Below are positions 1 through 37,415 of a stretch of 64,000 nucleotides of DNA, piece by piece. The notes under the pieces were generated by a model that was not told where the DNA came from, did no database searches, and worked only from the letters and a program-made list of their open reading frames with translations. The stretch lies in assembly GCA_964407865.1 (NCBI GenBank), contig CAYOXC010000002.1, positions 120,646 through 184,645 of the forward strand, read 5' to 3'. The stretch's first letter is position 1. Every line of letters begins with the position of its first letter. Position numbers and translations under genes: made by a program. The stretch comes from an uncultured Gammaproteobacteria bacterium. Lineage in GTDB: Bacteria; Patescibacteriota; Patescibacteriia; Magasanikbacterales; GWA2-37-8.

Positions 1-45
1 GAATAAGAACAAAATCGCTCCTTGAAAAAAGAAAGGAGTATTACA

Positions 46-2118
46 ATGAAACAAGGAGGTCCGGTAATGGACAAAATTGAATTGGGAGGAAAGTCGAAAG
101 TTGATCTGTTGGTTCGATATTTGACGAATTTGCCGGGGCCGCTTACTTCCGAAGAGCTGCATCTGATGCGTGGGGCAATAGGTACGGAAGGATGCGCCAG
201 GCTTCATGTTGCGTCGCAAAATGCGGAGAACGTGGGGCGGACGACTGTTCGCTTTTCTTCGATCCCGGGTGATGTTGACGAAGTGTTTCCTAATATTCTT
301 GAAGATCGCGCGGAAGTAACAAGTATCGCAGGTTTTATATTGGGCATGAAGAAGAGCGGTGCTGACTGGGTAATTCTGGAGTCGTTTATTGAGGAGTACT
401 TCGCCAATGGCGGACAGGCAAATTCTCAACTAGTTGAGGATGACACGACCGACAATCAGACCGATGAGAACAGTGAAAAGGAAATCGAATTGAACCCTGA
501 AGATTGTGTTCCGGTGAAAGATGATAATGACGTTGAAACGAGAAAGGAAGTTGAAGAGGGGGTTGAAAAGTTGAACGAACTTTGTCTCGAACTAGAACAA
601 ATCAGATCAATTGTCGCTAGCCACGAACTGGAGTTGAAGCAAGTCAATGACAATCTCGGTTTTCTCACTGAAGCCAAAAAAAATGCGCTTTTTGCCAAAG
701 AAGAGCTAGGGCGCGAGGTTGACGAGCTTACGCATGAAATTATCGAAATCAGAAAGAGTTCTGCCGAACTAAAATCAGAAGTTGCCAAACGCAAAGAAGA
801 GGCGCACGACATTGAACTCGACGCCTTGAACACAGAGCAGGCAGCAGCTGAAAAAATGGCCGAATGCAAGGCTCGCCTTCAGGCAGCTGAGGAGTTGAAC
901 GCGCAAGCTGATCTCTTCCTTAACAAGGCCGAACAACTTGAGGCTGATGCGGCAGAGAAAATGCAGGAGGCTGAGGCGCGAATCGCGACTGCCACGACCG
1001 AGATGGCTGAATTAGAAGCTCACGAAAGAAAGCAGAGCAATGAATCGCTGGCGCTTGTTGCGAAAATGGACGAAATCGGCATTAGCCAGGAGCTTAGAGA
1101 AAAACTGAAGCCTGAAGTGGATGAGGCTGTTCGTTACCAGGCGGCAATTTACACGCTTTCACTGATCAAAGTGAGCGCTGAAAAATTGGCCGGACAAGTT
1201 CGTGACGAGGTGGTAGACCTAGCGGCTGAATGTCGTGTTCTCGGCGAAAGGCGAACCGGGCTCGATGAACAAATTGCCGAGCTATCATCGTCGTGTGATT
1301 CGTTGACAGAAAATGTGCGTGAACTCACGGATCTTCGCAGTAGCCTGAGCGAGGAGATATCTTCGCTTGAAAATGATATTGCTGAAATGGAAAAAAATTT
1401 GGATCAGGCTCGTCAGGAATCGCGGGCAATCAATTCAAATTATCACGATACTCTGGCCAAATACCGCGAAGCCATTGAGGATAAAAATCGGCAGATGGCT
1501 GAGGCTGAGGCTGATTTTCTACGACAGCAGGCAATTCAGCAAGATAAGATCAGCAAGTTTGAGCAAATGACAGCCAGTGTTATCTCCGAGGCGCAGACCA
1601 ATCTGCAAAAAGCCTCAAAAAGCTGTGCTGATCGAGTAGCGGAGCTTGAAGCGCAAGCAGTTAGGGCCAAAGAAAAGGCAGACAGTGAGTCTGCCAGGCT
1701 GAAGCTCATAATCACAGAAGCGGAGACGGCTTTAGACGAAATGCGAGTTAACGCCGAAAACCGCGTCAGAGAGACGCATAATAAGGCGGCTGCTCTAGTT
1801 AACGTGGTTCAAGAAGTTCAGGCGGAAAACCTCTCCAGCTTGCAGGCAAAATTGGAAGAGATGGAGCAGTTCGACAGATTTTTTGATATAGTGATGGTTT
1901 CACTCAAGGAAGCAAAATCCAAAGTTCAGCGTGTTTACGAAGAAAGCGAAGGCTTGAACAAAACCTACCAGTCACTATTTGCCATTCGGATGAAAGAAGC
2001 CGAAGAAATCGACGTTAAAATGAGCCAAGCGTTGGCATTGGTAGAGCAGATTTGCGCTGAACCAATTGTCCAAAAAGACGATGATGCGGCGAAAGAAGAT
2101 CTTAAAAATACCAAGTAA
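46..2118 (+). CDS. Large coiled-coil protein: N-terminal ~130-aa globular domain followed by a ~550-aa Ala/Glu/Lys/Leu-rich coiled coil. Hypothetical.
   Basis: The ORF track gives 22..2118 with a TTG start. In-frame ATGs at 46 and 67 are each preceded by a GGAG/AGGAGG Shine-Dalgarno sequence. The sequence is heptad-like and E/A/K-rich over most of its length. GC is visibly higher than in neighbouring genes. A terminator hairpin follows at 2136-2168. Confidence 0.55.
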   Translation: MKQGGPVMDKIELGGKSKVDLLVRYLTNLPGPLTSEELHLMRGAIGTEGCARLHVASQNAENVGRTTVRFSSIPGDVDEVFPNILEDRAEVTSIAGFILGMKKSGADWVILESFIEEYFANGGQANSQLVEDDTTDNQTDENSEKEIELNPEDCVPVKDDNDVETRKEVEEGVEKLNELCLELEQIRSIVASHELELKQVNDNLGFLTEAKKNALFAKEELGREVDELTHEIIEIRKSSAELKSEVAKRKEEAHDIELDALNTEQAAAEKMAECKARLQAAEELNAQADLFLNKAEQLEADAAEKMQEAEARIATATTEMAELEAHERKQSNESLALVAKMDEIGISQELREKLKPEVDEAVRYQAAIYTLSLIKVSAEKLAGQVRDEVVDLAAECRVLGERRTGLDEQIAELSSSCDSLTENVRELTDLRSSLSEEISSLENDIAEMEKNLDQARQESRAINSNYHDTLAKYREAIEDKNRQMAEAEADFLRQQAIQQDKISKFEQMTASVISEAQTNLQKASKSCADRVAELEAQAVRAKEKADSESARLKLIITEAETALDEMRVNAENRVRETHNKAAALVNVVQEVQAENLSSLQAKLEEMEQFDRFFDIVMVSLKEAKSKVQRVYEESEGLNKTYQSLFAIRMKEAEEIDVKMSQALALVEQICAEPIVQKDDDAAKEDLKNTK

Positions 2119-4231: not shown

Positions 4232-4573
4232 ATGACCCCCGCAAGCACAACCAAGAAAACTACCGAAGTATCCACAAGAATACGCATTAAAATACGCGCT
4301 TACGATAACAAAATAATCGATCAGGCGACCAAAATGATTATTGATACGGCAGAACGCAATGATGCTAAAGTGATTGGCCCAGTACCGCTACCAACTGAGA
4401 AGACAAAATTTACAGTTAACCGATCGACTTTTGTGCACAAGAACGCTCGTGAACAATTTGAAATGCGCATTCATAAGCGCTTAATTGATATCATGAACGC
4501 TTCGCCGAAGTGTGTTGATGCATTGATGAGTCTAAGCTTACCGTCTGGTGTGGATATTGAGATTAAAATGTAG
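4232..4573 (+). CDS. rpsJ: 30S ribosomal protein S10
   Basis: RIRIKIRAYDNKIIDQ...KRLIDI is a typical S10 sequence. Confidence 0.93.
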   Translation: MTPASTTKKTTEVSTRIRIKIRAYDNKIIDQATKMIIDTAERNDAKVIGPVPLPTEKTKFTVNRSTFVHKNAREQFEMRIHKRLIDIMNASPKCVDALMSLSLPSGVDIEIKM

Positions 4574-4659
4574 ACCGTTAAAATTTATCTTGTTTTAGCG
4601 AAAAATTGTCCAATAAAGCACTGGCGTATCATTAATATCTTAATGCCATTGTTAGACTA

Positions 4660-4688
4660 TTGACAATTTTTGGTTAATTTAGTAAAAT
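4660..4688 (+). promoter_or_regulatory. Near-consensus sigma70 promoter inside the rpsJ-rplC spacer (TTGACA-N17-TAAAAT)
   Basis: TTGACA at 4660-4665, a 17-nt spacer, then TAAAAT at 4683-4688. Confidence 0.5.
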
Positions 4689-4951
4689 TGGGGACGTTAT
4701 CAAGCGGTCGGACAGTTTCAAATAAATAAGATCAGTCCGCATAAATGCGGAACAGGAAAACATTTATAAGAACTGCAAATGACCGAGGAGAATCATATTG
4801 GAAAATTTAGTTTATAAATAGCCAAATTAGTTTAGTTATTACCACTGGTTTGTGTGTTGTTAGACTGAGTGATTTGAGCCAGTTGGAAAGTAGTTTTTGG
4901 CTAGAAGCGATAGCACTGAAGTTTATTCAGTTTTATTGCTTCTAGTTTTTT
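4689..4951 (+). ncRNA. Candidate leader/sRNA transcript (promoter to terminator, ~250 nt) in the rpsJ-rplC spacer
   Basis: No ORF of 60 aa or more. The promoter at 4660-4688 and the terminator at 4901-4951 bracket the unit. An internal hairpin gtccgcat/atgcggaac lies near 4733-4752. Confidence 0.3.
4901..4951 (+). terminator. Intrinsic terminator/attenuator (ctagaagc...gcttctag + TTTTTT)
   Basis: 8-bp stem at 4901-4908 / 4938-4945 followed by a T6 run. Confidence 0.5.
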
Positions 4952-5017
4952 GTTAAGAGGGGAAGTTTAAAGGTTAACTCCGCAAAAAGAAGAAAGTGGA
5001 GCAATGACAGTATATAT

Positions 5018-5851
5018 ATGAAATTTATTTTAGGAAAAAAAATTGGCATGACACAGGTATTTTCGCAAACAGGCGAGATTGTGCCTGTTACCCGAGTGAT
5101 GGCCGGTCCGTGTCAAATTGTACAGATTAAGACTCCTGAAAAACAGAATGTTCAGGCTGTTGAGATTGGTTTTGATGAAGTAAAAGATTTTCGAGTCAAC
5201 AAGCCTAAAAGTGGCCATTTAAAAGATTTAAAGCCAATGCGTTATTTGCGTTCCTTTGAAACTGAAAAGATTGATGGTTTGAATCGAGGTGACATTATTA
5301 CAGTAGAAGTTTTTTCACCCGGCGATAAAGTGACTGTATCTGGAAACTCAAAAGGTAGAGGGTTTGCCGGTGTGGTTAAACGTCATCATTTTAAGGGTTC
5401 GCCAGCTACACATGGCCACAAACATGATTTGCGCGCTCCGGGTGCAATTGGTGCTGGAGGTGTACAGCGAGTATTTAAGGGTACGCGTATGGCCGGAAGA
5501 ATGGGCGGTGAACCGGTAACTGTACAAAACCTTGAAATAGTTGAAGTCCGTCCTGAAATAAATGAACTTTTGATTAAAGGTGCGGTTCCAGGAGCGCGAA
5601 ATACTTTGATTAAGATTTATTGTCCTGGTGATTTAGAAATAAAGAAAATTGAAGAGCCAGCCACAGAAGATATGACTTCTGTTGAGAAAGTTGATCAGGA
5701 GAATGAAGAATCAAAAAATGACGAGCAAGTCGTTGGAGAAACAACAACAGAGGTTAAAAATGACACTGTTGAAACACCGTCTTTGGAAAAAACAGTTGAG
5801 GGCGATAAGCAGGAAATGAAGGTAGAAGAACCAACTGTTACAAGTCAATAA
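5018..5851 (+). CDS. rplC: 50S ribosomal protein L3 with a ~65-aa acidic C-terminal extension
   Basis: The L3 core is residues 1-210. The tail is rich in E, T and K. Confidence 0.93.
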   Translation: MKFILGKKIGMTQVFSQTGEIVPVTRVMAGPCQIVQIKTPEKQNVQAVEIGFDEVKDFRVNKPKSGHLKDLKPMRYLRSFETEKIDGLNRGDIITVEVFSPGDKVTVSGNSKGRGFAGVVKRHHFKGSPATHGHKHDLRAPGAIGAGGVQRVFKGTRMAGRMGGEPVTVQNLEIVEVRPEINELLIKGAVPGARNTLIKIYCPGDLEIKKIEEPATEDMTSVEKVDQENEESKNDEQVVGETTTEVKNDTVETPSLEKTVEGDKQEMKVEEPTVTSQ

Positions 5852-5865
5852 TTTGGGAAATATTT

Positions 5866-6507
5866 ATGAAGACAAAGGTATACAATCTAGAAGGAAAAGA
5901 AGTGTCAGAAATGAATTTGAATGACAAGGTGTTTGGGGTAAAAGTTAAACCTGAATTTGTTCATGAAGTTTTTCTATTACAGATGCGCAACCAGCGCCAG
6001 CCTTGGGCCGATAGTAAAAATCGTGGCGAGGTAAGCGGTGGTGGTAAAAAGCCGTGGCGTCAGAAGGGCACTGGTCGTGCCAGGCACGGTTCAATTCGTT
6101 CACCTCTTTGGGTAGGTGGCGGTGTAACATTCGGTCCTTTAGCTGAACGCAATTACAAAGCTAAAATTAATAAGCGCGCACGAAAACTGGCTGCTAAAAT
6201 GTGTTTGTCTGACAAGGTTGAAGGAAATGCTTTGTACGTAGTAGAGGACTTTGCTTTTGTTGAACCAAAAACAAAGTTGTTTGTACAATTTTTAAGCAAA
6301 TTACCAGTAAAACAGAAAAGATTTTTAGTATTGACTGGCGCAGAAGACAACTCAAAGGTTTACCAGATGACACGCAATTTAAAAACGATTGAAACAATCC
6401 GAGCGGTTGATGCTAGTGTTATTTCCTTAGTTCAAAATGCAGCAATTATTGTCAGTAAAGATGCGATTAATGAATTGGAAAGAATTTTAACAAAAAGCGA
6501 AAAATAA
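5866..6507 (+). CDS. rplD: 50S ribosomal protein L4
   Basis: GGGKKPWRQKGTGRAR motif. Confidence 0.93.
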   Translation: MKTKVYNLEGKEVSEMNLNDKVFGVKVKPEFVHEVFLLQMRNQRQPWADSKNRGEVSGGGKKPWRQKGTGRARHGSIRSPLWVGGGVTFGPLAERNYKAKINKRARKLAAKMCLSDKVEGNALYVVEDFAFVEPKTKLFVQFLSKLPVKQKRFLVLTGAEDNSKVYQMTRNLKTIETIRAVDASVISLVQNAAIIVSKDAINELERILTKSEK

Positions 6508-6513
6508 TCTGAT

Positions 6514-20934: not shown

Positions 20935-21019
20935 GCCGAAGTGGCGGAATTGGTAGACGCGCACGACTCAAAATCGTGTTCCTTCGGGAGTGTGGGTTCG
21001 ATTCCCACCTTCGGCACCA
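20935..21019 (+). tRNA. tRNA-Leu (anticodon CAA), CCA-encoded
   Basis: Cloverleaf with a long variable arm. Anticodon loop cuCAAaa. T-arm GGTTCGATTCC. Confidence 0.85.
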
Positions 21020-21029
21020 CGTATAAAAT

Positions 21030-21053
21030 AATGCCCGGCTTTTGCCGGGCATT
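21030..21053 (+). terminator. Hairpin aatgcccggc tttt gccgggcatt after tRNA-Leu
   Basis: Perfect 10-bp stem. Confidence 0.5.
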
Positions 21054-21123
21054 ATAGGTGGTAAAGGTGGGAAGAGAACGGGAAAGGGAGAAAACGGGAG
21101 TTTTCTCTTTGTGGAGGAGGATT

Positions 21124-21168
21124 CACGGGAACCCGAAGCCTGCCTGCCGGTAGGCAGGGTTCCCGTGA
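21124..21168. repeat. GC-rich nested hairpin (cacgggaaccc ... gggttcccgtg enclosing cctgcc...ggcagg)
   Basis: Inverted repeat read directly. It sits inside a 150-bp GC-rich block. Confidence 0.6.
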
Positions 21169-21194
21169 AAGCGAACGAAGTGAGTGCGTGAGAT

Positions 21195-21210
21195 TTCCCA
21201 CCTTCGACAC
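21195..21210 (+). repeat. Direct partial copy of the tRNA-Leu 3' end (ttcccaccttcgAcac versus ttcccaccttcgGcac)
   Basis: 15 of 16 nt identical to 21004-21019. Confidence 0.7.
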
Positions 21211-21344
21211 AAATTTACTGTTGTAATTCACAAGTCAGCCCAGAACCTCGCTCCTGGCTAAAAATAGCTAAAAAAAGCAAAAAACATGGTTTGTTTACCT
21301 TGTTTTTTATTTTTTTTATGCTATAATAATAGCAACTTGTATTT

Positions 21345-32049: not shown

Positions 32050-32556
32050 ATGCCTCAAGATTTATCAAAAGAAGACGTAAATTTAGGTGAAGTGATTTAC
32101 AACTGGACGATTAAGGAATACGAAAAATATGAGCGCGGTAGCCGCTGGTATTTAGTTATGGGGATTTTTGCAATTTTGCTGATTGGTTTTGCTGTTATTA
32201 GTGCCAATTATTTATTTGCTTTAATTATTGTTCTGTTTGCCATAATTTTAGTTTTACAGGAAATGAATGAACCGGTAGAATTGGATTTTGCCATTACCGA
32301 AACCGGAGTGGTTATTGGCAATAAATTTTTTCCATTTTTTGAGATTGAAAAATATTGGCTAATTTACAATCCGCCGGAGATTAAAACTTTGTATTTTGAG
32401 CCAAAGACTATTTTAAAACATCGCATTTCTATTCCGCTGGATGATGTTGACCCGATAGAATTGCGTAGTTATTTGAATCAATATTTGGTGGAGGATATTG
32501 AGCGCGAAGAAGAACCAATAAGCGATCGGCTGGGAAGAATATTAAAAATTCAGTAG
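32050..32556 (+). CDS. Hypothetical membrane protein (2 TM helices)
   Basis: The track ORF 31960..32556 runs through the tRNA. The first ATG after the tRNA is at 32050 (MPQDLSKEDV). Confidence 0.5.
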   Translation: MPQDLSKEDVNLGEVIYNWTIKEYEKYERGSRWYLVMGIFAILLIGFAVISANYLFALIIVLFAIILVLQEMNEPVELDFAITETGVVIGNKFFPFFEIEKYWLIYNPPEIKTLYFEPKTILKHRISIPLDDVDPIELRSYLNQYLVEDIEREEEPISDRLGRILKIQ

Positions 32557-32562
32557 AAACTT

Positions 32563-32591
32563 CGCCTCTCCTCAGCGAGAGGTGTGTTTTT
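32563..32591 (+). terminator. Intrinsic terminator (cctctc ctcagc gagagg + TTTTT)
   Basis: Read directly. Confidence 0.55.
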
Positions 32592-32601
32592 AAAATAATA
32601 C

Positions 32602-32676
32602 GGTCTCGTCGTTCAATGGATAGGACACTAGCCTGCGAAGCTGGAGATCCAGGTTCGACTCCTGGCGAGATCACCA
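32602..32676 (+). tRNA. tRNA-Arg with apparent anticodon GCG, CCA-encoded
   Basis: Cloverleaf: acceptor ggtctcg/cgagatc, D-arm AGTTCAATGGATAG-like, anticodon stem ctagc/gctgg with loop cuGCGaa, T-arm GGTTCGACTCC. Confidence 0.7.
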
Positions 32677-32684
32677 CGTATAAA

Positions 32685-32710
32685 AAAGCCCGACTTTATG
32701 TCGGGCTTTG
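32685..32710 (+). terminator. Hairpin aaagcccgac ttta gtcgggcttt after tRNA-Arg
   Basis: Perfect stem. Confidence 0.55.
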
Positions 32711-32721
32711 TACGTGATTAA

Positions 32722-32735
32722 GCCAGGAGTCGAAC
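32722..32735 (-). repeat. Inverted 14-nt copy of the tRNA-Arg T-arm/3' region (gccaggagtcgaac is the reverse complement of gttcgactcctggc at 32653-32666)
   Basis: Exact reverse-complement match. Confidence 0.7.
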
Positions 32736-32748
32736 TCTTTTATTATTA

Positions 32749-32777
32749 TTGACATTTTGTCTAAAATATGCTATAAA
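32749..32777 (+). promoter_or_regulatory. Sigma70-like promoter (TTGACA-N17-TATAAA) for ORF 32848
   Basis: Hexamers read directly. An AGGAGG Shine-Dalgarno sequence precedes the ATG. Confidence 0.55.
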
Positions 32778-32847
32778 AATATGTTTAGTATCACAAGCAG
32801 GCCAAAGAGGCTCTGCTCATATTTAAAAAGAAAGGAGGCAAAAAGGC

Positions 32848-33258
32848 ATGTCCTTGAAAATTCCGAATTTGCCGAATAATGTTTTGCAAGCACATTTCAA
32901 ACGGATACGTCCGGTGATGCGTTTTTCCAAAACAGAAAAAGGACTGGTGCCTTGTGATTATGGTGAGCTGTATTTTCTTCGGGTAGAAAGCCCGGATGAG
33001 ATGTACAATGTGACTCCCCGTATCGGTAATCGCGCTTTAAAAGTGCGAAAGATTGCCGAAATTCGCACCTACCATTACTGGGTTTCAAATATCCCAGAAA
33101 TCAAGCCAACCTGCGCCGAAGTGTACGGCCAGATCCCCGCCGATTATCTTGGTCGCGTTATTGCCTTTGAGGTAAGGACTGGTGTCCATCAGGGTAATAT
33201 CGAAGGCAACTTTCTGCATACGACCACAATTCTTTACGAGCGTTTCAAGCGCCCGTAG
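32848..33258 (+). CDS. GC-elevated orphan protein (136 aa), hypothetical
   Basis: AGGAGG Shine-Dalgarno sequence. GC is about 50% against a ~37% host. A terminator lies at 33287-33310. No family recognised. Confidence 0.55.
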   Translation: MSLKIPNLPNNVLQAHFKRIRPVMRFSKTEKGLVPCDYGELYFLRVESPDEMYNVTPRIGNRALKVRKIAEIRTYHYWVSNIPEIKPTCAEVYGQIPADYLGRVIAFEVRTGVHQGNIEGNFLHTTTILYERFKRP

Positions 33259-33286
33259 AGCGCCACATCGTCAGTTTTTTTCTCCT

Positions 33287-33310
33287 ACCCGGTCATTCGA
33301 TCGGGTTTTA
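33287..33310 (+). terminator. Intrinsic terminator (acccggtc attc gatcgggt + TTTT)
   Basis: Read directly. Confidence 0.5.
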
Positions 33311-33350
33311 TATTTATTTGGGCATTCAATGTGGTATAATCAAAGTCAGT

Positions 33351-35471
33351 ATGGACATAAATACGCCGATAATAAAATTGAGTAGAGTGGGCGCCACAAC
33401 CGCCAAAAATCTAACCCGCCTTAATATTTTAACAGCGCAAGATTTGTTATATTGGTTTCCGTCTCGCTATGAAGATTTTCGTAATATTGTTCCGATCAGT
33501 TCTCTCAAAGACGAAATGTCTGTCACAGTGCGTGGTAAGTTGGAGTTAATAGCAAACAAGCGCTCATTTAGGCGTCGTAAAATTATAACTGAAGCATTGG
33601 TTTCTGATGAAAGCGGTAGCATTCGCGTGGTTTGGTTTAATCAGCCGTTTATAGCAAAAATGTTAAAACCAGGCGACAATATATTTTTGTCTGGTAAAGT
33701 TAAATCAGACATGATAGGGGTGGAATTCATAAGTCCGACATATGAAAAAGATATCAGTGGAGAAACAGCCCATACAGCGCGGTTAGTGCCTATATATCCT
33801 GTAACTCATGGGATAACACAAAAGCAGATGCGTTTTTTGATAAAGCAAATTTTACCTTTAAGTGATAAAATTTTAGAATGGCTACCTGAAAAAATACTTG
33901 AGAAATATGACCTGATGCCTATTGCCGATGCCTTGAAAGGAATCCATTTTCCTTCAGAAGAAAATGAGCTTAAAGCATCAACAGAAAGAATTAAATTTGA
34001 CGAATTATTTTTAGTTCAACTACGAGCTGAGCGCATTCGATTGGGACGAAAAAGTTTGCGCGCGCCAAACATTATTTTTAAGGAAGAGAAGATAAAAGAA
34101 TTTGTTTCAGCATTGCCTTTTTCTTTGACTCGGGCGCAAAAAATTTCTGCCTGGGAGATACTCAAAGATTTAGAAAAAAATATACCAATGAACCGTCTGC
34201 TGTCAGGTGATGTTGGGTCAGGTAAAACAGTTGTAGCGGCGATTGCTCTATACAATACAGTTTTGAATAATTATCAAGCAGTATTAATGGCGCCGACGGA
34301 GATATTAGCAAGACAACATTTTGACTCTTTATGTAATTTTTTTGAAGGCAATTTAAAAATAGCACTACTAACGAGAAGTCAGCGCGTATTTGCGGTCAAA
34401 AAAGAAAGTATAAAATTTGAGTTAAGCAAGAAAGAAATAGAAAAACAAATTTTTGACGGTGAGGTTGATATTGTAGTGGGCACGCATGCTTTGTTATCAG
34501 AAAAAATAAAATTCAGTGACGTTGGTTTGGTTGTTGTTGATGAACAGCATCGGTTTGGTGTAGGGCAAAGAAAAGCTATTAAAGACAAAACAAACGATAT
34601 TTCAGCTCATTATTTAAGCATGACTGCTACGCCAATACCGAGATCGTTTGCCTTAATGATTTATGGCGATTTGGATATTTCCATATTAAACGAGGCTCCA
34701 CCTGGCAGAAAGCCGGTTTTAACCAGATTGGTTGAGTCAAAAAATCGCGACAAGGCATATCAGTTTATAGAAAACCAGGTTTTAAACGGCAGACAGGTGT
34801 TTGTGGTTTGCCCTTTGATTGAAAAATCTAAAGAAAAGACGACAAAAGACGAAATTGAAATCATTAATTACAAAGGTTATCCTTCTATTTTAGAGAAGAA
34901 AAGTGTAACCAGCGAATTTGAAAAATTATCAAAAAATATTTTTCCTAATTTACGATTAGATTTTTTACATGGAAAAATGAAGCCAGCTGACAAAGAAAAA
35001 GTAGTTGATAAATTTAAAAAAGGAAAAACGGACTTATTAATTTCTACCACAGTAATTGAAGTTGGTGTGGATATCCCAAATGCATCAGTTATGATGATAG
35101 AAGATGCAGAGCGATTTGGTTTGGCCCAACTTCATCAATTGCGTGGCCGGGTTGGCCGTTCCATCCATCAGTCATATTGCTTTGTTTTTACTGGAAGTGA
35201 TTCAGATAAATCGCTTTCTCGTTTAAAATATTTTGAAAATATTAGCGATGGTTATAAGTTGGCGGAAAAAGATCTGGAAACACGTGGTCCGGGCGAAGTT
35301 TATGGTGTTGTTCAGAGCGGTATGATGAATTTTAGGTTGGCTAGATTGACAGACAGAGAAATCATTAAAAAAGCGCGGCAAGCAGCTGAATCAATCGGCT
35401 CAACAATTGATCAATATCCAAAACTTGAAGAAAAGGTTGCTGATTGGGAAAAATTGATACATTTAGAATAA
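33351..35471 (+). CDS. recG: ATP-dependent DNA helicase RecG
   Basis: Wedge/OB N-terminal domain. Helicase motifs GDVGSGKT and DEQHRFG. Confidence 0.9.
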   Translation: MDINTPIIKLSRVGATTAKNLTRLNILTAQDLLYWFPSRYEDFRNIVPISSLKDEMSVTVRGKLELIANKRSFRRRKIITEALVSDESGSIRVVWFNQPFIAKMLKPGDNIFLSGKVKSDMIGVEFISPTYEKDISGETAHTARLVPIYPVTHGITQKQMRFLIKQILPLSDKILEWLPEKILEKYDLMPIADALKGIHFPSEENELKASTERIKFDELFLVQLRAERIRLGRKSLRAPNIIFKEEKIKEFVSALPFSLTRAQKISAWEILKDLEKNIPMNRLLSGDVGSGKTVVAAIALYNTVLNNYQAVLMAPTEILARQHFDSLCNFFEGNLKIALLTRSQRVFAVKKESIKFELSKKEIEKQIFDGEVDIVVGTHALLSEKIKFSDVGLVVVDEQHRFGVGQRKAIKDKTNDISAHYLSMTATPIPRSFALMIYGDLDISILNEAPPGRKPVLTRLVESKNRDKAYQFIENQVLNGRQVFVVCPLIEKSKEKTTKDEIEIINYKGYPSILEKKSVTSEFEKLSKNIFPNLRLDFLHGKMKPADKEKVVDKFKKGKTDLLISTTVIEVGVDIPNASVMMIEDAERFGLAQLHQLRGRVGRSIHQSYCFVFTGSDSDKSLSRLKYFENISDGYKLAEKDLETRGPGEVYGVVQSGMMNFRLARLTDREIIKKARQAAESIGSTIDQYPKLEEKVADWEKLIHLE

Positions 35472-35581
35472 TTACATCTTGACTTTTCGATGTTTTTGTG
35501 ATATCCTCCCGGTTGTCTGTTTTGGAAGTTAAACTTCTAAAACAGGGGGTCCATTTACCAACCAAGGAAGGAAAAAATGAG

Positions 35582-35983
35582 ATGAAGAAACAAGCAGTTG
35601 CGATTGCAAGTCCGGAAAGAGACAGGATTCGCGTGTTGGTCAGAAGTGGCAATGAACCGCATCGGTCGTTTTACCTCACGGTCATGCACCTCGGGCTCAA
35701 CGGCAAGAGCGTCAGGCTTTTTGGCCGTCCGGGTCAGGATATGACCGACCGGACTTTCGAGGCCGAGGAAGTGGTTTTCAGGAGGGAAGAAGACTTGGAG
35801 CACTTCGTGCGTTTTGCGGCAGATTCCCTGCTCTCGCGCCGAAAGCGCTTCGTCTGGGATCCTTTCGGTGAAGAGGATGACTCTGTGATCGACGACACCG
35901 CCGGTCCGCTTCGTCAGAAGATCTGGAAGTGTTTCACTTCGCATCCGTCGATCAAGATTGACGGCGAGATTTTCAAGCGCTAA
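35582..35983 (+). CDS. GC-rich orphan protein (133 aa), hypothetical
   Basis: ATG at 35582 with an AGGAAGGA Shine-Dalgarno sequence. GC is about 55%. TTGACT lies at 35479. A terminator lies at 36013-36044. No family recognised. A long antisense ORF here (35555..35944) is taken as a GC artefact. Confidence 0.5.
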   Translation: MKKQAVAIASPERDRIRVLVRSGNEPHRSFYLTVMHLGLNGKSVRLFGRPGQDMTDRTFEAEEVVFRREEDLEHFVRFAADSLLSRRKRFVWDPFGEEDDSVIDDTAGPLRQKIWKCFTSHPSIKIDGEIFKR

Positions 35984-36012
35984 ACCCTTCGTCCTTGCAC
36001 CTTATTAAACAG

Positions 36013-36044
36013 GCCGCCCAAGACAATTGTCAGGGGCGGCTTTA
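36013..36044. terminator. Bidirectional hairpin gccgccc aa gacaattgtc ag gggcggc + T-run
   Basis: Read directly. Confidence 0.55.
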
Positions 36045-36071
36045 TTATTTAAAAAATAATTTTATAACAAA

Positions 36072-37415
36072 TTAAGTATGCTTGATAATATCTTGAATAT
36101 TTTTTATATCTAAAATTTTTAAATTTTTTACAGATATAGCCGAATGTTTTTTGCCAAGATTGGCCAGGGCGCGTTTGAGTCCGAGTTGTTCGCATTCTTT
36201 GAGGCGCCTTTCAGTTTGCGAAACTGGTCGAATTTCGCCAGACAAGCCAACTTCGCCAAAGGCAGCCATATCATTACCCAAAGCCTTGTCTTTGTAGGCA
36301 CTGGCAATAGCGAGTGCTACAGCTAAATCCGCGGCTGGCTCATCAGCTGTAAGTCCGCCGACAATGTTTAGGTGGACATCATATTGTTCCAAACGCAAGC
36401 CGGCTCTTTTTTGCAACACGGCAATTAAAACATGGAGTCGGTTAAGATCGAATCCGCTTGCTTTGCGCACGGGATAGCCGAATGAAGTTTTGTTAACTAA
36501 AGCCTGAACTTCAACTAGAATTGGCCTGGTACCCTCCATCAGGCAGGCAACAACATTGCCTGGAGCATTTTCCGCTCGCTCGTTTAAAAAGGCGGCTGAA
36601 GGATTTTTTACTTCTTCTAATCCGGTTTCTTCCATAGCAAATACACCAACTTCATCTGTTGAGCCAAAACGATTTTTTGCCGCGCGTAAAATTCTAAATT
36701 GGTGGAAACGATCGCCTTCAAGATAGAGGACTGTATCCACTAAATGCTCGAGCGCTTTTGGACCGGCTACTGTGCCTTCTTTTGTAACTTGTCCGATTAG
36801 TACTATGGTAAGGCGTTCGGCTTTTGAAAGTTCCATTAGTTTTACGGTGCAGGTACGAACTTGCGATAGGTTGCCCGCTTCACCTGTTGCTTCATCTGAG
36901 TAAACAGTTTGGACTGAATCAATTATAGTTAAAGCAGGTTTTTCTTTTTTTATAGTGGCAATAATTGTATCAATATTTGATTCGTTAGCTACTTTTAAAT
37001 TTTTGACTGTTATTTTTAGCCGATCAGAACGCATCTTTATTTGTTCGGTTGATTCTTCACCGGAAATATAAAGAGTATTAGGGAGAATTGATGCTAGCTG
37101 AAGTGCCAGGGTTGATTTACCTATTCCCGGTTCACCGCCAAGAAGAATGAGAGAGCCGGGCACGAGTCCGCCGCCGAGCACGCGGTCAAATTCGCCAATA
37201 TTGGTTCTTGTTCGCGTTACGTTTTCGCTTTTTATATCTGATAAATTCGATAATTTTGTTGGCGCGTATTCGTTGGGTTCGTTTTGCTCCTTGCTAATTG
37301 TTTTTTGTTCTTTATCTATCGTGCCCCAGTGTCCACATTCTAAACAACGCCCAACCCACTTTTGAAATTGTGCTCCACAGTTGTTACAGGAGAAAATTAT
37401 TGAGTTATGTTTCAT
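36072..37415 (-). CDS. radA: DNA repair protein RadA/Sms
   Basis: N-terminal C4 zinc finger CNNCG...CLECG. RecA-like GGEPGIGKST. Lon-like C-terminal domain. Confidence 0.92.
   Translation of the reverse strand: MKHNSIIFSCNNCGAQFQKWVGRCLECGHWGTIDKEQKTISKEQNEPNEYAPTKLSNLSDIKSENVTRTRTNIGEFDRVLGGGLVPGSLILLGGEPGIGKSTLALQLASILPNTLYISGEESTEQIKMRSDRLKITVKNLKVANESNIDTIIATIKKEKPALTIIDSVQTVYSDEATGEAGNLSQVRTCTVKLMELSKAERLTIVLIGQVTKEGTVAGPKALEHLVDTVLYLEGDRFHQFRILRAAKNRFGSTDEVGVFAMEETGLEEVKNPSAAFLNERAENAPGNVVACLMEGTRPILVEVQALVNKTSFGYPVRKASGFDLNRLHVLIAVLQKRAGLRLEQYDVHLNIVGGLTADEPAADLAVALAIASAYKDKALGNDMAAFGEVGLSGEIRPVSQTERRLKECEQLGLKRALANLGKKHSAISVKNLKILDIKNIQDIIKHT

What the first reader, a model, noticed from the sequence alone, without database searches (positions are those of the whole stretch)
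32677..33310. tRNA-Arg-adjacent mini-islet: inverted tRNA fragment, consensus promoter, GC-elevated orphan ORF, terminator
A 14-nt exact inverted copy of the tRNA-Arg T-arm (32722-32735) lies 45 nt downstream of the tRNA. It is followed by TTGACA-N17-TATAAA, an AGGAGG Shine-Dalgarno sequence, a 136-aa ORF with about 50% GC (host ~37%), and its own terminator. This is a self-contained transcription unit of foreign composition next to a tRNA with an att-like scar. I recognise no protein family for it. It is a candidate horizontally acquired or novel gene.
Basis: partly seen in the sequence, partly recalled or inferred. Interest (0 to 1): 0.6.

Follow-up and report, generated by a model that had tools for sequence, protein, structure and literature searches.

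The report
Native small gene beside tRNA-Arg
A small, separately transcribed gene from an unnamed protein family of ultra-small bacteria lies between a tRNA and the recG repair gene just as in its nearest relatives, so it is not a fresh import; the upside-down tRNA fragment beside it belongs to an unexplained hairpin design that recurs after many tRNA genes in these bacteria.

Summary
These are the 14-nt inverted T-arm copy, TTGACA-N17-TATAAA with a TG extension, AGGAGG, a 136-aa ORF and a terminator. Only the GC contrast is overstated: 46% against 39%, not 50% against 37%.

The "foreign islet with an att scar" reading does not hold. The ORF belongs to a real, unnamed family (735+ homologues in Patescibacteria, DPANN-type archaea and large viruses). 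Its AlphaFold model is confident (pLDDT 94). It matches no Pfam, PHROG, NCBIfam or PADLOC model and no solved structure.

Its two closest homologues (47% identity) sit in the same tRNA-Arg(GCG)–ORF–recG–small ORF–radA block. The gene therefore predates these lineages. There is no integrase and no direct repeat.

The inverted fragment is the outer arm of an ~83-nt quasi-palindrome: tRNA 3' half, hairpin, then an "anti-T box". The same design follows 15 of 170 tRNAs in related genomes, against 1 of 170 in upstream controls. It also follows tRNA-Leu and tRNA-Glu in this window. The box tracks each tRNA's own T-stem. At those other tRNAs it heads short inserts that end in att-like direct repeats.

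Verdict: an ordinary native gene of unknown function, next to an unexplained, possibly new tRNA-flank element.

The parts
32602..32676 (+). tRNA-Arg(GCG) with encoded CCA. It is the last gene of a conserved tRNA-Val / 168-aa membrane protein / tRNA-Arg group.
   Evidence: ARAGORN and Rfam tRNA at 60.6 bits. The same group occurs in L042.
32653..32735 (.). Quasi-palindrome of about 83 nt. The left arm is the tRNA T-loop, 3' T-stem and 3' acceptor strand (32653-32674). The right arm is its inverted copy without the CCA (32714-32735), of which 32722-32735 is the exact 14-nt 'anti-T box'.
   Evidence: 22 nt, 86% complementary; 0 matches in 100 shuffles. An RNA covering the tRNA plus trailer folds into the long hairpin at -70.7 kcal/mol, z = -8.95.
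32685..32709 (.). Inner perfect 10-bp hairpin, AAAGCCCGAC-TTTAT-GTCGGGCTTT. Read on the minus strand it is followed by TTTTTT. On the plus strand only TTTGT follows.
   Evidence: (I3) and direct reading. The stock terminator scan did not call it on either strand.
32749..32777 (+). Sigma-70-type promoter: TTGACA, 17-nt spacer, TGcTATAAA (extended -10).
   Evidence: one of 13 near-consensus sites in the window, against 2.1 +/- 1.5 expected. The other sites also lie upstream of genes.
32833..32838 (+). Shine-Dalgarno sequence AGGAGG, 9 nt before the start codon.
   Evidence: Direct reading. AAGAAAGGAG is also present in the orthologous locus L086.
32848..33258 (+). Gene for a 136-aa soluble protein (15.9 kDa, pI 9.6, no hydrophobic segment) of an unnamed family found in Patescibacteria, DPANN-type archaea and large viruses.
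   Evidence: 67 hits; 735 hits; pLDDT 94.4, pTM 0.88; HMM E = 8e-44.
33287..33316 (+). Intrinsic terminator of the ORF: 8-bp stem with 5 GC pairs, then a T-run.
33331..35471 (+). Context: recG with its own extended -10 promoter (TGgTATAAT, with TATAAT at 33335-33340) and ATG at 33351. Downstream lie a second GC-rich small ORF (35498-35983) and radA on the minus strand (36072-37415).
   Evidence: The promoter string TGTGGTATAATCA.AGTCAGTATGG is conserved in L084. The block is conserved in L084 and L086.

Best explanation
Two unrelated features lie side by side. (1) ORF 32848-33258 is a genuine, long-resident gene. It is transcribed alone from a host-type extended -10 sigma-70 promoter and ends at its own intrinsic terminator. 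It encodes a small soluble alpha/beta protein of a widespread but unnamed family. It occupies a slot between tRNA-Arg(GCG) and recG that is empty in about half of related genomes. The gene probably entered that slot once, before the window lineage and the two sampled sister lineages diverged, and has been inherited vertically since. Its biochemical function is unknown. The family has no conserved gene neighbours and behaves as a solitary accessory gene. (2) The inverted tRNA fragment is not an integration scar of this gene. It is the outer arm of a quasi-palindrome made of the tRNA 3' half, a bidirectional terminator-type hairpin and a 12-14-nt 'anti-T box' complementary to the tRNA's own T-loop and 3' T-stem strand. 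This design recurs after many tRNA genes in Patescibacteria. At other tRNAs it forms the left end of short GC-rich inserts that end in a direct repeat of the tRNA 3' end. At tRNA-Arg in this window only the hairpin and the box are present, and the ORF promoter abuts them. What is shown: the sequence features, the protein family, the conserved gene order, and the recurrence and covariation of the box. What is inferred: transcription as one unit, a single ancient insertion, and the view that the box here is a remnant or partial copy of such an insert.
For: The protein is real. Exhaustive phmmer gave 67 hits, most 130-150 aa long. The profile search gave 735 hits. Conserved motifs are RIKPVxRF, TYH, FKPxIAEVLAQIP, VAFE and YHxAxTxLY. 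The AF2 model has pLDDT 94.4. Gene order is conserved. P0002 in L084 lies about 70 nt after a tRNA-Arg(GCG) 3' part, and P0003 in L086/L087 also lies directly upstream of recG. Both are followed by a small ORF and radA. Identities are RecG 65-67%, RadA 76-79%, the ORF 46-47% and orf161 31%. The recG promoter string is also conserved. The promoter belongs to the host class. GC3 is elevated relative to recG in all three lineages, by +0.19, +0.09 and +0.17. The slot is variable: 12 of 26 loci have a gap of 130 nt or less, and 12 carry differing genes. No neighbour family recurs in more than 3 of 62 dereplicated family loci, and a tRNA lies within 600 bp in only 5 of 68, which is not an enrichment. 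An inverted T-arm copy lies within 150 nt downstream of 15 of 170 tRNAs against 1 of 170 upstream (Fisher p = 4e-4). The same design occurs at tRNA-Leu and tRNA-Glu in this window, with direct repeats. The box tracks 9 different T-stems, matching its own tRNA at 4.3 of 5 positions against 2.6 of 5 for other tRNAs. A conserved ~110-nt element with covarying hairpins follows the box in other genomes and forms tandem arrays.
Against: No experimental data exist: no TSS mapping, no termination mapping and no protein detection. The ORF's GC and GC3 are about 2 sd above the window's genes, so a later replacement from a GC-richer relative cannot be excluded. The nearest ORF-bearing relative, L084, lacks the inverted copy, so the box at this site could be a young local event. 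The covariance model of the best-defined element family does not hit this window, so calling the tRNA-Arg box a member of that family rests on architecture only. The family also occurs on large viral contigs, which shows it does move horizontally.
Confidence: 0.7

Rival explanations
1. One reading: a recently acquired mini-island integrated at tRNA-Arg. The inverted T-arm copy would be the att scar and the GC-rich ORF the foreign cargo.
For: The ORF is a GC and GC3 outlier at about +2 sd. It lies next to a tRNA. tRNA 3' flanks in this group do carry att-like direct repeats elsewhere. The family also occurs on large viral contigs.
Against: Orthologues sit at the same site in lineages with only 65-67% RecG identity. 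There is no integrase. No direct repeat is found; the best score is 6. The repeat is inverted. The promoter is the native type. The GC3 offset is shared by the orthologues. Three assemblies of this organism are identical here.
Confidence: 0.05
2. Ancient cargo of a tRNA-Arg-targeting element. The ORF would have been delivered by an integrative element in the common ancestor of the window, L084 and L086 lineages. The hairpin plus anti-T box would be the decayed attL side, with attR and the integrase lost.
For: The slot is empty in 12 of 26 relatives. At tRNA-Leu and tRNA-Glu the anti-T box is the left end of inserts bounded by direct repeats. The family is patchy and also viral.
Against: L084 has the ORF but no box or hairpin. 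L042, L015, L022, L051 and L229 have the box but not the ORF. Box and ORF are therefore uncoupled. Other occupants of the slot include what look like housekeeping genes: the L054/L056 ORFs read by eye as glutamate racemase, not tested against any library, and the L042 ORF matches DUF475/TerC. Across 68 loci the family gene is not enriched near tRNAs.
Confidence: 0.15
3. The anti-T box is a functional cis-RNA element. In transcripts that read through the weak plus-strand hairpin, it would pair with the tRNA's T-loop and 3' T-stem. That would form a long stem followed by UCUUUUAUU, which could terminate transcription or mark read-through pre-tRNA for decay, insulating the downstream gene.
For: The tRNA plus trailer has an MFE of -70.7 kcal/mol at z = -8.95, with the long hairpin replacing the T-arm. 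A T-rich tract follows the right arm. Complementarity is kept across 9 different T-stems, while the adjacent acceptor part of the copy has diverged.
Against: A T-tract after the outer arm is seen only at this tRNA, not in L042 or at tRNA-Glu and tRNA-Leu. Co-transcriptional folding should form the cloverleaf first. At other tRNAs the box comes with direct repeats and tandem arrays, which points to DNA-level events. No expression data exist.
Confidence: 0.12
4. The ORF is a chance open frame, and the GC-rich segment is a non-coding RNA or a relic.
For: Elevated GC in an AT-rich genome can mark a structured RNA. The word-index protein search found only the ORF itself.
Against: There are 67 to 735 full-length protein homologues with conserved motifs. 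The AF2 model has pLDDT 94. The Shine-Dalgarno sequence and ATG are correctly spaced. Rfam gives no match at the gathering or E-value threshold.
Confidence: 0.01

Closest known systems
tRNA-linked genomic islands and prophages integrated by tyrosine integrases (attL/attR direct repeats of the tRNA 3' end)
   Same: The locus adjoins the 3' end of a tRNA gene. In the same window tRNA-Glu has a 50-nt direct repeat (63271-63320 = 63482-63531) and tRNA-Leu an 18-nt direct repeat, as att sites do. The repeats start in the T-loop, the usual crossover region (established knowledge).
   Different: At tRNA-Arg there is no direct repeat, no integrase and no absence in relatives. The repeat is inverted. 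The inserts at the other tRNAs are only about 110-210 nt and encode nothing.
CIMEs (cis-mobilisable elements) and other decayed integrative-element remnants that keep att sites but no recombinase (my own knowledge of the Streptococcus ICESt literature, not checked here)
   Same: They are short non-coding DNA bounded by att-like repeats at a tRNA 3' end. Tandem accretion occurs, as in the three 135-nt units after tRNA-Ser(TGA) in L015.
   Different: The elements here are 10 to 100 times smaller. They share a conserved structured core with covarying hairpins, and they carry a box complementary to the target T-arm. CIMEs are not known to have that.
Folded-hairpin recombination sites (integron attC; the CTX-phi attP(+) hairpin used by XerCD)
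   Same: This is a resemblance in how it might work, not a membership claim. A direct copy and an inverted copy of the target sequence, separated by about 40-60 nt, could fold in single-stranded DNA into a duplex that mimics the target. The acceptor-region mismatches would form an internal bulge.
   Different: No recombinase, no single-stranded intermediate and no free form of the element has been seen. This is an analogy from memory, not a tested relationship.
Quasi-palindrome extension by replication template switching, and tandem-inversion duplications
   Same: A terminator hairpin flanked by an inverted copy of its upstream flank is the product expected of snap-back synthesis.
   Different: The distal T-arm part of the copy is perfect (14/14, 13/13, 11/11) while the proximal acceptor part has diverged. 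That is the reverse of what simple decay or hairpin-proximal correction predicts. The sequence beyond the box is unrelated to the tRNA body.
Uncharacterised viral proteins with the same predicted fold (BFVD A0A8S5VB23 Siphoviridae sp., A0A1V0SL52 Klosneuvirus, A0A142CJH6, A0A3G4ZUQ7 Edafosvirus)
   Same: Foldseek gave E = 4e-5 to 2e-3 and query-normalised TM-scores of 0.57-0.66 over the whole 136 aa. Sequence relatives also lie on 112-441-kb IMG/VR contigs.
   Different: Sequence identity is 9-19%, all are unannotated, and the targets are longer (152-265 aa). Nothing is learned about function.

Membership tests
tRNA-targeted integrative island | Integrase or recombinase gene next to the tRNA | tested here: not met
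   Between tRNA-Arg and recG the only substantial ORF is the 136-aa one. It has no Pfam, PHROG or NCBIfam hit. The called genes in L001 show no integrase in the 15.6-kb contig that carries the gene.
tRNA-targeted integrative island | Direct repeat of the tRNA 3' end at the distal boundary (attR) | tested here: not met
   The best direct local-alignment score within 400 nt downstream is 6.0, against 13.5-27.5 at tRNAs that do have such repeats. Nothing tRNA-like lies between the ORF and recG.
tRNA-targeted integrative island | Absent from the same site in related genomes | tested here: not met
   Orthologues occupy the same site in L084/L085 and L086/L087. More distant relatives (RecG 62% identity or less) lack it.
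tRNA-targeted integrative island | Composition foreign to the host | tested here: inconclusive
   GC is +1.7 sd and GC3 +2.1 sd above the window's genes, but the orthologues show the same positive offset relative to their own recG and radA.
Autonomous bacterial transcription unit (sigma-70 promoter, SD, ORF, intrinsic terminator) | Near-consensus -35 and -10 hexamers at 17-nt spacing upstream, and a GC hairpin plus T-run downstream | tested here: met
   11 of 12 matches plus TG, a class enriched about 6-fold over shuffles; terminator at 33287-33306.
Autonomous bacterial transcription unit (sigma-70 promoter, SD, ORF, intrinsic terminator) | Mapped transcript start and end | not testable with these tools
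   No transcriptome data are available for this uncultivated organism.
Unnamed Patescibacteria/DPANN/virus small-protein family (profile A1) | Full-length significant similarity and the family motifs (RIKPVxRF, TYH, KPxxAEV..QIP, AFE, LY) | tested here: met
   phmmer E = 1.8e-30 to P0002. HMM E = 8.4e-44. Invariant or near-invariant residues P22, T74, H76, P87, E91, V92, I96, P97, A106, F107, L129 and Y130 are present.
Any curated protein family or solved fold | Match to Pfam, NCBIfam, PHROGs, PADLOC, PDB sequences or PDB structures | tested here: not met
tRNA 3'-flank anti-T-box element (model R1 type) | Box complementary to the adjacent tRNA's T-loop and 3' T-stem strand, 40-60 nt after the tRNA | tested here: met
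   The complement is 14 of 14 at 45 nt. Table of 13 instances.
tRNA 3'-flank anti-T-box element (model R1 type) | Conserved core GYCAGGAATCGAAAGYCGGAGC ... GCGAGGCGGGGTCG with covarying hairpins | tested here: not met
   cmsearch with R1 finds nothing in the window at E <= 1. After the box the sequence runs straight into the ORF promoter.
tRNA 3'-flank anti-T-box element (model R1 type) | Direct repeat of the tRNA 3' end closing the insert | tested here: not met
   None at tRNA-Arg. Present at tRNA-Leu and tRNA-Glu in the window.
Intrinsic terminator of the tRNA-Arg transcript | GC-rich hairpin immediately followed by a U-run on the transcribed strand | tested here: inconclusive
   The 10-bp hairpin at 32685-32709 is followed by TTTGTACG on the plus strand and TTTTTTAT on the minus strand. 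The scan did not call it. The outer quasi-palindrome is followed by TCTTTTATTATT.

The most novel reading that the evidence does not exclude
The anti-T box next to tRNA-Arg would be the footprint of an undescribed class of miniature non-coding elements in Patescibacteria. These elements insert at tRNA 3' ends, regenerate the tRNA end as a direct repeat, can pile up in tandem, and carry a guide-like 12-nt segment matched to the T-loop and T-stem of their particular target tRNA. One possibility is a folded attachment hairpin that mimics the target, recognised by a recombinase acting in trans. Separately, the 136-aa protein would represent a new fold shared by CPR bacteria, DPANN archaea and large viruses.
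Probability: 0.3. Interest if true: 0.7.

Novelty: new member of a known kind. Interest (0 to 1): 0.35.

Why it matters
For the finding as submitted, the result is mainly a correction. Adjacency to a tRNA, a GC bump and a tRNA fragment do not make an island, and conserved gene order shows the gene is resident. Two things remain worth attention. First, the protein belongs to a large unannotated family (at least 735 clusters). It has a confidently predicted structure with no solved relative, and it is shared by episymbiotic bacteria, DPANN-type archaea and large viruses. That makes it a tractable target for structural and functional work on the dark proteome of ultra-small cells. Second, tRNA 3' flanks in these genomes carry a recurring, target-matched inverted box and short structured inserts with att-like repeats. 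Neither Rfam nor the literature I could search describes them. If they are mobile, they would be a new and very small kind of tRNA-targeting element, and they would explain many apparent tRNA fragments in CPR genomes.

Tried and rejected
- Structured RNA instead of a protein. Rfam at the gathering threshold over the whole window and at the E-value threshold over 32500-36200 found only the tRNA. Rejected.
- Known protein families. Pfam, NCBIfam, PHROGs and PADLOC were run on the ORF and on 49 family members, and Pfam on 10 longer members. Nothing credible came up.
- The afdb50 library was unavailable.
- Guilt by association. Across 62 dereplicated family loci no neighbour family recurs in more than 3. 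The recG link is confined to one clade. One member overlaps the uvrD start. This is too thin to support a DNA-repair role.
- tRNA adjacency as a property of the family. It holds in 5 of 68 loci, which is not an enrichment.
- Homology between ORF136 and the other occupants of the slot (L013 167 aa, L015 162 aa) or orf161. None found.
- A second tRNA on the minus strand. The copy has no 5' T-stem partner, and neither ARAGORN nor Rfam calls one.
- The flank motif GCGAACGAAGTGAG in viral contigs gave more than 120 hits, which I judged close to chance for a 14-mer; no expectation was computed. AGGAATCGAAAGYCGGAGC gave 0 hits.
- Literature searches for a described tRNA-flank inverted T-arm element or for CPR att sites found nothing relevant.
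- The alignment-based viral scan with A1 failed for lack of a conserved block. It was repeated with A2.
Full report
OBSERVATION. All the listed features are real and lie at the stated positions.
- tRNA-Arg(GCG) occupies 32602-32676.
- GCCAGGAGTCGAAC at 32722-32735 is the exact reverse complement of 32653-32666, which is the T-loop plus the 3' T-stem strand. The window holds only these two copies even at one mismatch, and 100 shuffles gave none.
- The complementarity extends to 22 nt at 86% (32653-32674 / 32714-32735) and encloses a perfect 10-bp hairpin at 32685-32709. The whole is an ~83-nt quasi-palindrome.
- The copy lacks the CCA that the tRNA gene encodes.
- Downstream come TTGACA (32749-32754), a 17-nt spacer, TGcTATAAA (-10 at 32772-32777), AGGAGG (32833-32838), the ATG at 32848, a 136-codon ORF ending at 33258, and a hairpin with a T-run at 33287-33316.
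- The promoter belongs to a class of 13 near-consensus sites in the window, against 2.1 +/- 1.5 in shuffles. These sites sit in front of genes.
- The GC contrast is real but smaller than stated. The ORF has 46.2% GC and 48.9% GC3. The 59 window genes average 39.6 +/- 3.8% GC and 33.6 +/- 7.3% GC3.

THE ORGANISM AND THE NEIGHBOURHOOD. RecG, LytR and the other neighbours place the window in Patescibacteria (CPR), close to Magasanikbacteria. The best RecG identity among species-representative genomes is 62%. Three short-read assemblies from one project carry the identical locus.

THE PROTEIN.
- A word-indexed search of 5.8 billion clusters found only the protein itself.
- An exhaustive phmmer scan found 67 relatives. 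Most are 130-150 aa, and the best two reach 47% identity.
- A profile built from 49 of them recovered 735 clusters. All are labelled hypothetical and none has a Pfam domain. Where a source names them they are mostly Parcubacteria or Patescibacteria MAGs, and one is an archaeon.
- One member sits next to a TFIIB gene, so that locus is archaeal.
- Thirteen loci lie on IMG/VR contigs of 112-441 kb whose neighbouring genes look by eye like those of large phages or giant viruses.
- The alignment shows strong motifs with invariant T74 and V92, and near-invariant P22, H76, P87, E91, I96, P97, A106, F107, L129 and Y130.
- AlphaFold2 with this alignment gives pLDDT 94.4 and pTM 0.88 for a mainly beta fold with three short helices.
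- Four uncharacterised viral proteins share the fold, at E = 4e-5 to 2e-3.
- Pfam, NCBIfam, PHROGs and PADLOC give nothing for the ORF, for 49 members or for 10 longer members.
- The protein is soluble with pI 9.6. The family median pI is 6.8, so charge gives no hint of nucleic-acid binding.
- Its function therefore remains unknown. It is a real, conserved, folded protein.

IS IT FOREIGN? The decisive evidence is gene order.
- P0002 (L084) and P0003 (L086/L087) are 46-47% identical to the ORF. Each lies directly upstream of recG and is followed by a small ORF and radA on the opposite strand.
- L084 begins with the 3' part of a tRNA-Arg(GCG), about 70 nt before the ORF.
- In these lineages RecG is 65-67% and RadA 76-79% identical to the window's proteins. 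The second GC-rich small ORF of the window (35498-35983) has a 31%-identical counterpart at the same place.
- The recG promoter string is also conserved.
- The block tRNA-Arg / ORF / recG / small ORF / radA therefore predates the split of three deeply diverged lineages.
- There is no integrase and no direct repeat of the tRNA end.
- GC3 of the ORF exceeds that of recG in all three lineages, by +0.19, +0.09 and +0.17. The offset is therefore a property of the gene, not a mark of recent arrival.

- Among 26 related loci with a co-oriented tRNA-Arg(GCG) upstream of recG, 12 have a gap of 130 nt or less, 2 carry only a short non-coding insert, and 12 hold differing genes.
- Those genes include a DUF475/TerC membrane protein.
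- By eye they also include a CheY-like receiver, a glutamate racemase on the opposite strand, secreted proteins and unknown ORFs.
- The slot is therefore variable, and the ORF was most likely inserted there once, long ago.
- The family itself has no fixed context. No neighbour family recurs in more than 3 of 62 dereplicated loci, and a tRNA lies within 600 bp in only 5 of 68, which is not an enrichment.

THE INVERTED tRNA FRAGMENT. It is not peculiar to this locus.
- I scanned 170 non-redundant tRNAs in the fetched Patescibacteria and relative loci. An inverted match to the tRNA's last 30 nt (score 10 or more) lies within 150 nt downstream of 15 of them, against 1 of 170 upstream (Fisher p = 4e-4).
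- The window contributes three of its five tRNAs: Arg, Leu(CAA) at 20935-21019 and Glu(TTC) at 63214-63286.
- The design is always the same: tRNA 3' end, a hairpin, then at 40-57 nt a box complementary to the T-loop and the 3' T-stem strand.
- The box follows the local tRNA. Across 13 instances with 9 different T-stems it matches its own stem at 4.3 of 5 positions, against 2.6 of 5 for other tRNAs. The loop part matches at 7 of 7 in ten instances.
- The orthologous tRNA-Arg of L042 has T-arm GTTCAATTCCTAG and the box CTAGGAATTGAAC. That is three compensated differences from the window.
- By contrast, the part of the copy facing the acceptor strand has diverged in every case.
- At tRNA-Glu the box heads a 161-nt GC-rich insert closed by a perfect 50-nt direct repeat of the tRNA end plus its terminator (63271-63320 = 63482-63531).
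- At tRNA-Leu a ~175-nt insert is closed by an 18-nt repeat.
- L042, L022, L024, L027, L036 and L051 show the same arrangement.
- In five loci the sequence after the box is conserved (GYCAGGAATCGAAAGYCGGAGC ... GCGAGGCGGGGTCG) with hairpins that covary: 13 pairs show double changes.
- A covariance model of it finds further copies that start exactly at the 3' ends of tRNA-Ser genes. These include three near-identical tandem 135-nt units in L015, each consisting of the element plus an 18-nt tRNA 3' end.
- Rfam has no such family. Two literature searches found no description.
- The model does not hit this window. At tRNA-Arg no direct repeat follows, and the box runs straight into the ORF promoter.
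- L084 has the ORF without the box. L042, L015, L022, L051 and L229 have the box without the ORF. The two features are independent.

HOW IT MOST LIKELY WORKS.
- Shown: the gene has host-type expression signals and a conserved product. The quasi-palindrome is thermodynamically dominant. An RNA covering the tRNA and its trailer folds into the long hairpin at -70.7 kcal/mol (z = -8.95) at the expense of the T-arm.
- Inferred: the ORF is transcribed alone from about 32784 and ends near 33310. In L084, where no terminator or promoter separates tRNA and ORF, the orthologue is probably co-transcribed with the tRNA. The hairpin/box module in the window lineage may therefore have made a separate promoter necessary.
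- The inner hairpin reads as a better terminator on the minus strand (T6) than on the plus strand (TTTGT). It probably shields the tRNA from antisense transcription.
- At this tRNA only, the outer stem is followed by UCUUUUAUU. It could act as a back-up terminator for read-through.
- The origin of anti-T boxes is unresolved. The direct repeats and tandem arrays at other tRNAs argue for site-specific DNA insertion at the T-loop. The target-matched box suggests a folded att hairpin, by analogy with integron attC or the CTX-phi attP. That analogy is untested.

COMPARISON AND VERDICT. The locus fails three of the four defining tests of a tRNA-linked island: recombinase, direct repeats and absence in relatives. 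The fourth, foreign composition, is inconclusive. It passes the sequence tests for an autonomous transcription unit, and it is a clear member of an unnamed protein family. As submitted, the finding is an ordinary resident gene of unknown function, wrongly read as a fresh islet, and it scores low to moderate. Two things remain of interest: the unannotated family, whose predicted fold has no solved relative, and the recurrent target-matched tRNA-flank elements. The box beside tRNA-Arg may be a partial example of those elements.

Noticed in passing
window 21020-21212: After tRNA-Leu(CAA) there is a terminator hairpin, an inverted T-arm/acceptor copy (about 21058-21080) and GC-rich hairpins. Then comes a direct repeat of the tRNA 3' end (TTCCCACCTTCGGCACCA against TTTCCCACCTTCGACACA), giving an att-like insert of about 175 nt with no ORF. 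Its start (CGTATAAAA + GCCCGnC hairpin) resembles the trailer of tRNA-Arg.
   Followed up: partly
window 63271-63531: After tRNA-Glu(TTC) a perfect 50-nt direct repeat (tRNA 3' 17 nt plus terminator) flanks a 161-nt GC-rich structured insert. The left end of the insert is an inverted T-arm copy (CCAGGGAATCGAAC, 63337-63350).
   Followed up: partly
window 63660-64000: The right end of the window looks markedly GC-rich by eye (no composition was computed here), against 39% for the window, and seems to carry an open frame on the minus strand (not translated) that runs off the window. It may be a foreign segment just beyond the tRNA-Glu insert.
   Followed up: no
L015 3509-3637, 3867-4249, 5112-5215; L022 267-444, 3159-3265; L051 3269-3530; L017 4109-4218; L229 3589-3658; L290 1616-1712: A conserved structured element of about 110 nt (model R1) starts exactly at tRNA 3' ends (Arg, Ser, Lys). 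It carries a T-arm-complementary box and is followed by a copy of the tRNA 3' end. After tRNA-Ser(TGA) in L015 there are three near-identical tandem 135-nt units. It is not in Rfam.
   Followed up: partly
window 35498-35983: A second GC-rich small ORF (161 aa, GC 52%, GC3 62%) lies between recG and radA with no Pfam, PHROG or NCBIfam hit. A 31%-identical counterpart sits at the same place in L084.
   Followed up: partly
window 22-2118 and 60801-61895 (minus strand): These are two further GC3 outliers. One is a 698-aa ORF with no Pfam match (GC3 0.47). The other is a 364-aa ORF with weak PRPP-synthetase-like hits (GC3 0.64). Three of the four GC-rich genes in the window (the 698-aa ORF, ORF136 and orf161) have no family match; the 364-aa ORF has only these weak hits.
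   Followed up: no
window 21139-21158; L036 2763-2782; L080 5735-5754; 12 IMG/VR contigs (L214-L225): The exact 20-mer hairpin CCTGCCTGCCGGTAGGCAGG, with a non-palindromic loop GCCGGT, recurs in contigs whose GC ranges from 33% to 70%. Several contigs hold more than one copy, which seems far more than chance would give for a 20-mer (no expectation was computed). Its nature is unknown.
   Followed up: partly
window 32602-32676 and 34 of the fetched recG loci: The arginine tRNA found in this neighbourhood consistently has anticodon GCG. Most bacteria use the ACG (inosine) type, as far as I know. The arrangement of a small DUF5673-like membrane protein followed by tRNA-Arg(GCG) is widely conserved upstream of recG.
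   Followed up: no
L227 4001-4420 / 4417-6510: One family member overlaps the start of a UvrD-type helicase gene by 4 nt. Together with the recG linkage in the window's clade, this is a faint hint of a link to DNA-repair helicases. The 62-locus survey does not support it.
   Followed up: partly
L013 5050-5066 / 5139-5155 and 5187-5223: The tRNA-Arg of L013 is bracketed by a perfect 17-nt leader/trailer inverted repeat. It is followed 47 nt later by a 37-nt direct copy of its 3' half, starting at the anticodon stem. This is a different kind of tRNA-flank rearrangement.
   Followed up: no
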